From NCBI GenBank assembly GCA_963920595.1, contig OY986946.1, positions 9,176,001-9,240,000 of the forward strand: 64,000 bases of DNA, written 5' to 3'. Shown one piece after another: positions 14,163 to 18,946 of this stretch; the first letter of the stretch is position 1, and each line of letters opens with the position of its first letter. This DNA comes from Eimeria praecox (lineage: Eukaryota). Made by a program: the position numbers and the translations under genes. Under the pieces are notes generated by a model that worked only from the letters and a program-made list of their open reading frames with translations, made no database searches and was not told the origin of the DNA.

Positions 14163-17100
14163 TTTACAATAAATGATATTTTATCATTTTCAGTCATCTA
14201 AGAACCCCAGAAGGTAATTTTGCGCTCTCTTTTGTTGCGCAGAATTTACCGGCTGGGTTCGCGCGTCAGTGTCAGTGCCTGCGGCCGGTGCAAATCGGCT
14301 GCAAATCCTTCTCCTTTTTTATAATTCTTTTTTCTATAGCATTAAAACATCAAATTTTAAAAGATGGAAGAAGAAGAGGTAAAAAAGGATGCGGTTTCAC
14401 CGCTGAACTCAGCTGCGCCCATGCGGCCCCCACAGCCGCAGCCGACCGCTCGGCCGAACAGCAGTTCAGCATTGAAAGAGGCCCCTTCTGGAATTATAAT
14501 TGCAAAACCAAGGACCTCCAGCAGCCGCAAAGAAGGAAAGGACTCAGAAGATTCTCAAGACGAGGAGGAAATGCAGATCTGCGAGCCCGCCCCACACATG
14601 GATCTGCCGCAACAAGACCCGTCTCCATGCAGTGAGGAGATAGAAGTAGAGCAGATGCTAGATACGGCAACTGATAATCAGATAGTCCCAGGTTCGATTC
14701 CCAGCAGGGAAAAGGACGCTGATAGTCTACAACAACAGCCAGAGGGATTGTCAGAGCTCGATAGCGATACCTCGATCTGTCCTGTGGATACAGGACAGCT
14801 CGAAGTGTCGAAGTCTACAGCCGTAGCAGATACCGTAGAGGCTCAAATGGTGGAGGAGACGGCTCAGGGCCCCCAAGCAGCAGAGGAGAGCTGCCCTGAT
14901 AACGGGCAACAGCAGCAAGGGGGGCAATCTACAAGCCCTGCGCGGCTCATCAGCTTCAGGGATCTAGTCCGCCAGTTTGTAGAAGAACGCAGAGCCAGAA
15001 ACCTTACACCAGACGGAGAGGGGGAGTCACAGCAGTTAGCAGATGGCAGCAGCATACAAAAGGACAGCGTAGCTCCAGTGTTCAACTGGGGACAAAGGAG
15101 CAACGCAAATTCAGCAGAAAACACCCCAGAGAGCATCAACAGAACGCCAAAGGGGGTGGCCACACAGCCTGTCTGCTGCCCCAACTGCAAACGTGTATTC
15201 AACTCCGCAAGGGGGCTCTCCCTTCATACACGTAGGGGAGGAAAAGGCAGCTGCGCTCTGAGGAGAAGAGAAATCATCAATGAATGTCAGAACGTGGCAA
15301 CCCCCGTGCCGTTGACGTTCCGTCTCAATAAGCGCATTCAGGAGGAAGCAGATGAAGATGTAAACAAATTGGGTGATAGACCCCGTCTAGCAAAAAGAAG
15401 AAGGGGACGAAAAGCACCTACACAGGGCCCCCCAGAGCCGACTCCTACAGAATTGGAAGGGGATCGTGCGATGGCGGGCAGACAGGCAACACCGGCAGCA
15501 ACAGCAGAGCAGCACAGGCCTACAACAACCGACGGAGAGGCGCTGCTCATAGATAAGTGGCCGGAGAGAGCTCAACAGCAGAGGAACGACCCGATCACGC
15601 GTCGAAGACCACTTCGAATACCTCGTCTAACAGCAGAAGCGGGCGCAAGGCTTACAAGACAACTGATGGAACTTGCGCAAACTACTGCTACCAAGATGGT
15701 CGACAGCACTTGGGAAGAAGTGGAAGCCGCAGTAGAAGGCTTCACCACTCAGCTTTATGATGCGATTTGGTTTGCAGATAAGAACCCCAAGGAAGCAAAT
15801 CAACGTGGCAAGAAGAACCAGCCCTCAACGAACACCGAGGACTCAGGAATCCGAAAGACACGCGTGTCCCCAAGGCAGGCTCAAGCACAGGAAAACGTCG
15901 ACAAGGCGTTGCAAGCACTCCGAGCAGAGGAGAGAGCCCAGCAGGGGAAAGAGTCTGGAGCATCGCTTGATGATAAACTGAAGAAGCGTGCCCTTGAAAG
16001 AAATCTACGAACTGCGCGTCGTCGCCTCATCATGATCCTCAAAGAAGAGTCAGCACAAAATCTCCAAGCACTCTACATGAAAGACCGAAAGAAGTGTGTG
16101 GAGCAACTACTAGCTGACGAAGATCAACCTAGAAGCCAAGATTGTCCCATCCAACTCAGTGAGCTGGAGGCACACTTTAGAGATCAGCACTCTGAGCAAA
16201 TAATCGACTCCACTTCTGATGTTGCTCATGAGTTCTTAGACCCTTTGGCTTCAGCCCCTAGTGGAGCGTTTGCGATTGATCTATACTTCACAGAAGAGGA
16301 TGTGCGTGCTCAGCTGCTAAAGAGCAACCTTAAGTCTGCAGCAGGGCCAGATGGGATAGGGTTTTTTGTGTACAAGAGGTTTGAAGAGGTGCTTGTTCCA
16401 GCCATGACCGCGATATACAACGCGTGCTCTCGGCATCGACGTATTCCAGAGAAGTGGAAGGAAAGCGTGACCGTTTTGATTCCCAAGCAGGGCGATCCTA
16501 ACGATGTGAAGAGTTGGCGACCCATCAATCTACAGGACTGTATCTACAAACTTTATGCAGCACTGTGGGCCAGCAGGATTACGGACTGGGCATCACAGTC
16601 CGGGGTTGCCTCCAAGTCGCAGAAGGGATTCATGCCAGTGAATGGGTGCCATGAGCACCTGTTTCTTGCCCAAAGCATCCTCAACTCCACGCGCAGAGGC
16701 TCGAAACCGCTGTACATGACGTACTACGACTTGAAAAATGCATTTGGATCCGTTCCCCACGAGCTCATACACGTTGTCTTGAAGGCTCAACGGCTACCGA
16801 AGCACGTTCGTGAGATCATCATGGATCTCTATCAAGGAGCGAGCTTCTGCGTAGTGACAAAGGAGGGCTGCACAGGTCGAATTGAGAACCGACGAGGAGT
16901 GAAGCAAGGGTGTCCTCTCAGCCCGATCCTCTTCAACCTAGCCATTGAGCCTCTCCTGCAGAGATTAGCAGCTTGTGATGCAGGCCTCGAACTGCGTACG
17001 ACAGACGGGAGACCGCCTGTGAAGGTCTCTCACATGGCGTATGCAGACGACCTCAAGACGGTTGCTAGTACTCGAGCAGGAATTTCTACACTTCATCAAG

Positions 17101-18946: not shown

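What the first reader, a model, noticed from the sequence alone, without database searches (positions are those of the whole stretch)
16330..18560. Protein signatures suggest NeSL/Utopia/R5 affinity rather than R2
Seen: QKGFMPVNGCHEH, DLKNAFGSVPH, and post-RT SALLPWQKLDAIRTF...GGLG. From memory, the L-x-PWQK-x-x-A-x-x-TF and QKGF..GC.EH motifs are typical of NeSL/Utopia/R5-like RLE elements, whereas R2 usually has QR(A/G)F...DG..EN and an N-terminal Myb domain, which I do not see here. Inference: a lineage that elsewhere targets U2 snRNA or spliced-leader genes, or another 28S site, has retargeted to this position.
Basis: inference. Interest (0 to 1): 0.75.

Follow-up and report, generated by a model that had tools for sequence, protein, structure and literature searches.

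The report
Backwards Utopia retrotransposon in Eimeria rDNA
An intact jumping gene sits backwards in the large ribosomal RNA genes of a coccidian parasite, a few bases from the classic R2 site, but protein trees place it in the NeSL/Utopia group, not R2, so it is likely a Utopia lineage that switched from its usual U2 RNA target to ribosomal DNA.

Summary
The window is a tandem rDNA array. All 3 visible 28S sites hold the same RLE-type non-LTR retrotransposon (two full-length with open 1,450-aa ORFs, one 5'-truncated), antisense to the rRNA, with its target-side junction 6 nt from the R2 site. Close relatives are named from six Eimeria species. RT trees put it in the NeSL/Utopia clade (99/97) and outside R2 (AU p=2e-5). 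Longer alignments join it to RNase H-bearing oomycete Utopia-type proteins (98-100), though one RT-only tree leaves that unresolved. No R2-type Myb was found (profile: 54 of 72 held-out R2, 0 of 7 Eimeria-type; AlphaFold agrees). GC.EH, AFGS and PWQK are diagnostic in my set; GGLG is not. R5/LIN, HERO and CRE could not be anchored. The clade label is probably already in Repbase ('Utopia-1_ENe', read by me as E. necatrix). I found no paper on its 28S target, but antisense 28S targeting is known for planarian LIN elements at other sites, and this scan noted similar fossils in two other genomes (unchecked). Verdict: new target variant of a known kind.

The parts
14163..18946 (+). Full-length non-LTR retrotransposon, copy 1 (4,784 bp), antisense to the 28S rRNA gene it interrupts
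   Evidence: Junctions and length; LSU rRNA on - strand 13059-21312
14163..14363 (+). 5' UTR; folds into stable hairpins, better on the element strand than on the rRNA strand; no known ribozyme matched
   Evidence: z -4.2 (+) vs -1.8 (-) for 14163-14363; z -5.5 for 14163-14400; Rfam no relevant hit
14364..18719 (+). Single ORF, 1,451 aa from first Met: low-complexity N-terminus, one zinc finger, helical extension, RT, thumb/linker, zinc knuckle, RLE
15177..15254 (+). N-terminal zinc finger C-x2-C-x12-H-x8-C, kept in all 7 Eimeria-type full-length rows
   Evidence: alignment A1; confident in model
15603..16085 (+). Conserved helical hairpin and long helices before the RT (aa 415-575), not a Myb fold
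16479..17165 (+). Reverse transcriptase core (Pfam RVT_1), with QKGF..GCHEH, AFGS and YADD
17361..17570 (+). Thumb/linker motifs LLPWQK and GGLG
18153..18548 (+). CCHC zinc knuckle and PD-(D/E)xK restriction-like endonuclease
   Evidence: aligned to R2Tg
18720..18946 (+). 3' UTR, no poly(A); ends CCTTAAAATTTCC, repeating the CCTTAA of the upstream target
   Evidence: not structured
14140..14162 (-). 28S flank at the element's 5' junction; R2 site (AAGG/TAGC) lies between 14157 and 14156, 6 nt from the junction
   Evidence: R2 site as given in PMC7650587
18947..18970 (-). 28S flank at the element's 3' junction, helix-69 variant; 2 target bases appear deleted (inferred)
   Evidence: 6 of 6 metagenome loci with the same variant read CCTTAA-GA-ACGTC
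33198..37988 (+). Full-length copy 2 (4,791 bp), open ORF, 62 differing columns against copy 1, same junctions
52246..53284 (+). 5'-truncated copy 3 (1,039 bp), identical to the 3' end of copy 2, same target-side junctions

Best explanation
This is an intact RLE-type non-LTR retrotransposon of the NeSL/Utopia clade, lying antisense in 28S rDNA next to the R2 site in a host that is likely Eimeria; it is likely still mobile, predicted to insert by target-primed reverse transcription, and likely descends from U2-targeting Utopia. Shown: open ORF with RT, zinc knuckle and RLE; R2-like predicted fold; clade position; same junction bases in three copies, one 5'-truncated. Inferred: the endonuclease nicks the rRNA-sense strand 8 nt upstream of the R2 site, the RT copies the element RNA from that 3'-OH, and a second nick 2 nt away leaves a 2-bp deletion. 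Because it is antisense it cannot ride the Pol I transcript as R2 does, so it would need its own or an antisense promoter; the structured 5' UTR is the candidate RNA element. The single zinc finger and the helical extension would stand in for R2's ZF-Myb module in reading the target.
For: Trees: 53-row NeSL/Utopia clade 99/97, R2 100/99, R4-like 100/100. Grouping with oomycete RNase H proteins 99, 93, 99/95 and 100/99 on 838 columns, 94 and 98 under a mixture model. AU rejects union with R2, R4-like, nematode NeSL and parabasalid rows. RNase H upstream of RT, the published mark of oomycete Utopia (PMC4640811), in 5 of 6 neighbours scanned. R2 anchors score 411 and 1,043 bits against solved R2 proteins, the query 106 and 228 at best for R2Bm and R2Tg. 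9 of 10 fragments looked up are named Eimeria, six species. Five clusters at 64-80% identity keep full-length ORFs and catalytic motifs. Copies 1 and 2 differ by 1.3% while their 28S flanks differ at 0-1 sites per 1.1-2.3 kb, pointing to element turnover apart from the unit. Model pLDDT 92.6, best structural matches are R2 TPRT complexes, TM 0.65-0.68.
Against: The careful RT-only tree left the Eimeria-oomycete link unresolved. No labelled R5/LIN, HERO, CRE, Acanthamoeba Utopia or verified R4 sequence was in any tree. The target of the oomycete neighbours is taken from the literature, not seen. No empty 28S site of this host was seen, so the 2-bp deletion and nick positions rest on other eukaryotes. 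Flanks of relatives in other Eimeria were not seen; several named relatives are fragmentary and one lies on a 102-kb contig, so specificity may be loose. Three adjacent copies are not three proven events. Mobility and transcription are untested.
Confidence: 0.75

Rival explanations
1. 28S-antisense targeting is old in this branch (older than Eimeria, perhaps ancestral to the protist Utopia group), so nothing was retargeted in coccidia.
For: Planarian LIN9/24/26 of the NeSL clade also sit antisense in 28S (PMC4640811 S6 Fig.). Two unchecked scan notes describe antisense NeSL/Utopia-like fossils beside the R2 site in other genomes. Targets of the unnamed sister rows P0008/P0009 are unknown.
Against: Oomycete, amoeba and animal Utopia share one U2 site (PMC4640811), and the Eimeria group nests among such rows, so U2 is the simpler ancestral state.
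Confidence: 0.1
2. One chance insertion was spread by rDNA homogenisation; the family is not site-specific, and copy 3 is a deletion derivative.
For: The three copies are neighbours; copy 3 equals copy 2; named relatives in other Eimeria are fragments on contigs of 1-102 kb; a diverged low-depth variant exists in run X2.
Against: Copy 3 keeps none of the element's first bases yet has the same target-side base, as TPRT truncation gives; element divergence far exceeds flank divergence; relatives at 75-80% identity lie on contigs of 19.2 kb and 4.87 kb, the sizes of a unit with element and of the element alone (circumstantial, flanks unseen).
Confidence: 0.09
3. It belongs to the R5/LIN lineage and inherited its 28S site from it.
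For: From memory, R5 inserts 8 bp upstream of the R2 site, which equals the inferred 3' junction here (paper not held; orientation not checked). LIN elements are antisense in 28S.
Against: Strong grouping with oomycete RNase H proteins on long alignments; R5/LIN is reported only from flatworms and as a separate cluster (PMC4640811); LIN9 and LIN24/26 sites map 537 and 79 nt away.
Confidence: 0.05
4. It is a divergent R2 or R4 element.
For: It sits 6-8 nt from the R2 site and its best solved relatives are R2 proteins.
Against: AU p=1.8e-5 (R2) and 0.002 (R4-like); no R2-type Myb; opposite orientation; 0 of 25 R2 rows share GC.EH, AFGS or PWQK. R2 and LINE-1 were the only non-LTR proteins among the PDB hits.
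Confidence: 0.01

Closest known systems
Utopia (NeSL clade; Kojima and Jurka 2015, PMC4640811), oomycete branch
   Same: RT/RLE phylogeny, one ORF, N-terminal zinc finger, RT, knuckle, RLE; SAR host; no long target duplication
   Different: Target is 28S rDNA antisense, not U2 snRNA nt 38/39; no RNase H; alveolate host, not in the paper's host table
Repbase 'Utopia-1_ENe' (name only, listed under NeSL clade in PMC7650587)
   Same: If ENe is Eimeria necatrix (my reading; PMC9141347 says Repbase holds three TEs from three Eimeria species), probably the same family
   Different: Entry not seen; its sequence and stated target are unknown to me
Planarian LIN9_SM, LIN24_SM, LIN26_SM and R5 (R5/LIN cluster of NeSL clade)
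   Same: NeSL-clade RLE elements in 28S; LIN elements shown against the antisense strand; R5 site recalled as 8 bp upstream of R2
   Different: LIN sites are 537 and 79 nt away; LIN 3' ends are T-rich; flatworm hosts; relationship not testable here
R2 (R2Bm, R2Tg, turtle R2)
   Same: Same 28S region, same predicted RT-linker-knuckle-RLE fold, presumably same TPRT chemistry; small target deletion as in R2Bm
   Different: Separate clade, opposite orientation, junction shifted 6-8 nt, no Myb, no HDV-like ribozyme found, cannot be co-transcribed in sense by Pol I
'LINE R2' calls in Eimeria by MGEScan (PMC9141347)
   Same: 17 non-LTR elements in Eimeria genomes; may include this family
   Different: Labelled R2 by software; no target or clade analysis in the passages I saw

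Membership tests
NeSL clade (incl. Utopia) | RT phylogeny within the NeSL/Utopia lineage | tested here: met
   99/97; 100/96; anchors named by host and domain (Caenorhabditis with Ulp1, oomycetes with RNase H, turtles), not by Repbase id
NeSL clade (incl. Utopia) | C-terminal CCHC knuckle and restriction-like endonuclease | tested here: met
Utopia | One ORF with 1-3 N-terminal zinc fingers and no R2 Myb | tested here: met
   one finger; Myb absent
Utopia | Insertion in U2 snRNA gene at nt 38/39 | tested here: not met
   3 of 3 copies in 28S; no U2 in the window by Rfam. Utopia by descent, not by target
Oomycete Utopia | RNase H upstream of RT | tested here: not met
   no RNase H in P0001; present in 5 of 6 neighbours
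Nematode NeSL | Ulp1 protease, spliced-leader target, clustering with Caenorhabditis NeSL | tested here: not met
   no Peptidase_C48; AU p=1.8e-6
R5/LIN | Clustering with planarian R5/LIN RT | not testable with these tools
   no labelled R5/LIN protein among hits; the basal group tried proved parabasalid-like
R5/LIN | Same 28S site and orientation as R5 | tested here: inconclusive
   LIN sites differ; R5 site only recalled, paper not held
R2 | RT in R2 clade | tested here: not met
R2 | N-terminal ZF-Myb | tested here: not met
   0 of 7 vs 54 of 72 held-out R2; profile missed one true R2-A
R2 | Sense insertion at AAGG/TAGC | tested here: not met
   antisense, 6 nt away; R2 site left intact
R4/Dong | RT in R4 clade | tested here: inconclusive
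   rejected against five rows I labelled R4-like from a recalled motif; label unverified
HERO, CRE | RT clustering | not tested
   no labelled references obtained

The most novel reading that the evidence does not exclude
An Eimeria-wide, still active Utopia lineage left U2 snRNA and converged on the R2 hotspot of 28S rDNA from the opposite strand without a Myb domain, filling a large share of rDNA units: an undescribed active site-specific retrotransposon of Apicomplexa and a second, independent protein solution for inserting at the R2 safe-harbour site.
Probability: 0.4. Interest if true: 0.72.

Novelty: new variant of a known kind. Interest (0 to 1): 0.5.

Why it matters
Reviews describe Eimeria retroelements as degenerate LTR remnants unlikely to function (PMC7564333, passages) and apicomplexan TEs as rare (PMC9141347). 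An intact, apparently mobile rDNA-specific element changes that picture and would affect rDNA assembly and 28S markers. For transposon biology it gives a target switch within Utopia, a SAR branch uniting alveolate and oomycete elements that fits the proposed ancient origin, and a test of how an RLE protein reads the R2 region without Myb and is expressed against Pol I traffic. R2 proteins are used for gene insertion at this locus (PMC13580325), so a reverse-strand alternative is of practical interest. The score is held down because the clade label is probably already in Repbase and antisense 28S targeting has planarian precedents.

Tried and rejected
No whole genome is held for the window. The search for related loci found no relative in metagenome, viral or prokaryote contigs, so flanks of relatives were not seen. 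The helix-69 pattern gave 0 viral loci. Sequencing runs: no RNA holder listed, which is no evidence on expression. Reads were laid on the element only, so the empty site and the inserted share in this host remain open. Ribozyme search: Rfam gave one chance hit; crude HDV, hammerhead, twister and pistol patterns (recalled motifs) found nothing, a weak negative. No tRNA by ARAGORN. ESM Atlas was uninformative for aa 250-640 (score 0.76) and generic for the RT-RLE part. Pfam was rejected as a Myb test (0 of 9 R2 controls). The third homolog search, meant to find R5/LIN, returned a parabasalid-like group (1 named Tritrichomonas hit among 120). The careful mixture-model tree did not finish (one search reports the quick tree). 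VIA-align never ran. A 6-bp target duplication (CCTTAA on both sides) was considered; it would need a 7-nt mismatch in helix 69, so I read the second CCTTAA as part of the element, unproven without an empty site. TTTGGCTA is shared by U2 and this target but lies 15 vs 8 nt from the first nick; not used as evidence. Papers not held: Burke 2003 (R5), Eickbush reviews, Fell 2025.

Full report
Setting. Rfam finds four rDNA units on the - strand, with SSU spacing 19,041, 19,042 and 15,296 bp. Three LSU genes show the R2 region and all 3 are interrupted at the same bases; the fourth site lies outside the window. The inserts are 14163-18946, 33198-37988 and 52246-53284, all on the + strand, so antisense to the rRNA. 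The SSU and 5.8S look coccidian to me (recalled), TGCATGCA occurs 44 times against 3.2 expected (its link to Eimeria is recalled), and 9 of 10 close protein fragments looked up are named Eimeria: mitis, necatrix, praecox, media, brunetti, maxima (the nearest, 96% over matched stretches, is labelled E. praecox). The host is therefore most likely an Eimeria.

Observation. All quoted motifs are in the single ORF at the stated place. On 87 aligned RT regions, GC.EH, AFGS and PWQK occur in 0 of 25 R2 rows and in 27, 35 and 13 of 41 other NeSL/Utopia-clade rows; QKGF is in 3 of 25 R2 rows; GG[LM]G (22 of 25) and P.Q[KR] (23 of 25) are shared with R2. R2Tg itself has QRGF..GC.EN and LKPLQK. The NeSL/Utopia rows were retrieved with query words, so their counts are biased upward.

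References. No Repbase set is available, so anchors came from searches. (138 hits, 120 listed, of 7,990 scored) ranks Eimeria-type proteins first (64-98%), then three unnamed proteins at 36-39%, oomycete proteins at 33-37%, then turtle, arthropod and nematode proteins. Five of 6 oomycete-side rows scanned carry RNase H upstream of RT, the mark of oomycete Utopia in PMC4640811 (parts 1-3 of 5 read, plus supplement S6 part 1 and searched passages). R2 rows came; two were verified against solved R2 proteins (411 bits to R2Bm; 1,043 bits to turtle R2), the rest by clustering with them. Five rows were labelled R4-like from a recalled motif only. A basal group tried as R5/LIN proved parabasalid-like. 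I chose 87 of roughly 375 stored proteins by hand for the main trees and 48 for the AU tests and the long alignment.

Phylogeny. Careful LG+G4 tree, 422 columns: R2 (25 rows plus one unlabelled) 100/99, R4-like 100/100, and a 53-row clade at 99/97 holding the element, oomycete, animal Utopia-type, Caenorhabditis and parabasalid-like rows; the Eimeria group plus two unnamed sisters is 100/99, but its link to oomycetes is unresolved in this tree. Quick trees on the same data joined it to oomycetes at 99 and 93. With RT through RLE (838 columns, 48 rows) the link is 99/95 and 100/99, apart from an animal clade at 100/99, and 94 and 98 under LG+C20 after dropping one partial and two long rows. AU tests reject union of the Eimeria group with R2 (p 1.8e-5), R4-like (0.002), nematode NeSL (1.8e-6) and parabasalid-like rows (0.012).

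Myb. Pfam misses Myb in 9 of 9 R2 controls and finds it in a sponge protein inside the Utopia clade, so it cannot decide. A profile from 27 R2 Myb segments scored 15 bits or more in 54 of 72 held-out R2 N-termini and in 0 of 7 Eimeria-type, 0 of 3 sister, 0 of 25 oomycete-range and 0 of 59 other rows; it missed one verified R2-A. A second round recovered 4 of the 18 remaining R2 rows and left all Eimeria rows at 0.8 bits or less. AlphaFold on aa 255-700 (15 rows, pLDDT 63) gives one zinc finger, about 100 disordered residues and helices of 20-39 residues, with no Foldseek match at E 0.001 and no Myb among listed rows. A model of aa 400-1452 (pLDDT 92.6, pTM 0.88) matches R2 TPRT structures best, TM 0.65-0.68: it works like R2 but is not a member.

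Target and activity. The R2 site (AAGG/TAGC, PMC7650587 passage) is intact 6 nt from the 5' junction. The other flank has a helix-69 variant; 6 of 6 metagenome loci from other eukaryotes with that variant read CCTTAA-GA-ACGTC, implying a 2-bp deletion and a first nick 8 nt from the R2 site. This host's own empty site was not seen. Copies 1 and 2 both have open ORFs and differ at 62 columns (RT-RLE codons: 6 silent, 3 replacement; N-terminus 11 and 19), while flanks differ at 0-1 sites per 1.1-2.3 kb; copy 3 is identical to copy 2 and starts at the same target base. Of 4 runs laid, X1 and X2 cover 30 of 30 bins, X23 15 (diverged), X5 2; X1 shows the same 3' junction letters and X2 is deeper at the 3' end, as truncated copies would give, though the tool warns that depth is no copy number and X1 may be the source. 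The 5' UTR folds well and better on the element strand; one other 150-nt window of 16 (14763) also reached z -4.

Literature. Searches for Eimeria with non-LTR/rDNA/apicomplexa (2 papers), Utopia/retrotransposon, 28S/retrotransposon/insertion (none relevant by title and abstract) and Cyclospora/rDNA/RT gave no description of this insertion. PMC9141347 (passages, partial supplement rows) reports 17 MGEScan 'LINE R2' calls in Eimeria and three Repbase TEs from Eimeria. PMC7650587 (passages) lists 'Utopia-1_ENe' in the NeSL clade without naming the host. PMC4640811 S6 shows LIN9, LIN24 and LIN26 against antisense 28S at sites 537 and 79 nt away. PMC13580325 and PMC13188248 (passages) define Utopia vs R2 by Myb and mention no Eimeria or non-animal 28S case in the terms searched; PMC5035012, PMC3636483, PMC5678591, PMC8869645, PMC7564333 and PMC11828913 were seen as passages (one section of PMC3636483). 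Repbase, Burke 2003 and Fell 2025 with its large target survey could not be read and may already hold this family.

Verdict. Clade membership is well supported, site specificity is likely, activity and the U2-to-28S direction are inferred.

Noticed in passing
window 14162, 33197, 52245: All 3 visible 28S sites are inserted; no empty unit in the window. If typical, the host runs on a minority of intact rDNA units or the array is a silenced block.
   Followed up: partly
window 18947-18965: 28S helix 69 has a variant stem (GGACG...CGT) also found in 6 metagenome loci of other eukaryotes; whether all rDNA of this host has it, or only an inserted rDNA type, is unknown.
   Followed up: partly
window 12076-12942 (and each unit): Seven 90-bp spacer repeats; five per unit contain TTCTTAAGG, matching the core of the inferred empty target in the opposite orientation. 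Possible decoys or chance.
   Followed up: partly
window 11316-11480: Three 58-bp spaced repeats with T-arm/B-box-like GGTTCGATTCC motifs in the spacer, on the element's strand; no tRNA by ARAGORN or Rfam.
   Followed up: partly
window 14988-15602: Differences between copies 1 and 2 cluster in the N-terminal coding region, suggesting recombination between element variants or relaxed selection.
   Followed up: no
window 18717: Copy 1 stops 10 codons earlier than copy 2; copy 3 shares the copy 2 state.
   Followed up: no
proteins P0067, P0498, P0502: Pfam Myb in three proteins fetched as NeSL/Utopia-like; P0067 (sponge) falls inside the Utopia clade, so Myb is not confined to R2.
   Followed up: partly
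proteins P0408-P0497: A large, mostly unnamed family of RLE retrotransposons related to a Tritrichomonas protein, one filed under a bacterial MAG.
   Followed up: no
window 16385, run X2: A low-depth contig joins element sequence to letters resembling antisense 28S from another place; rearrangement or artefact.
   Followed up: no
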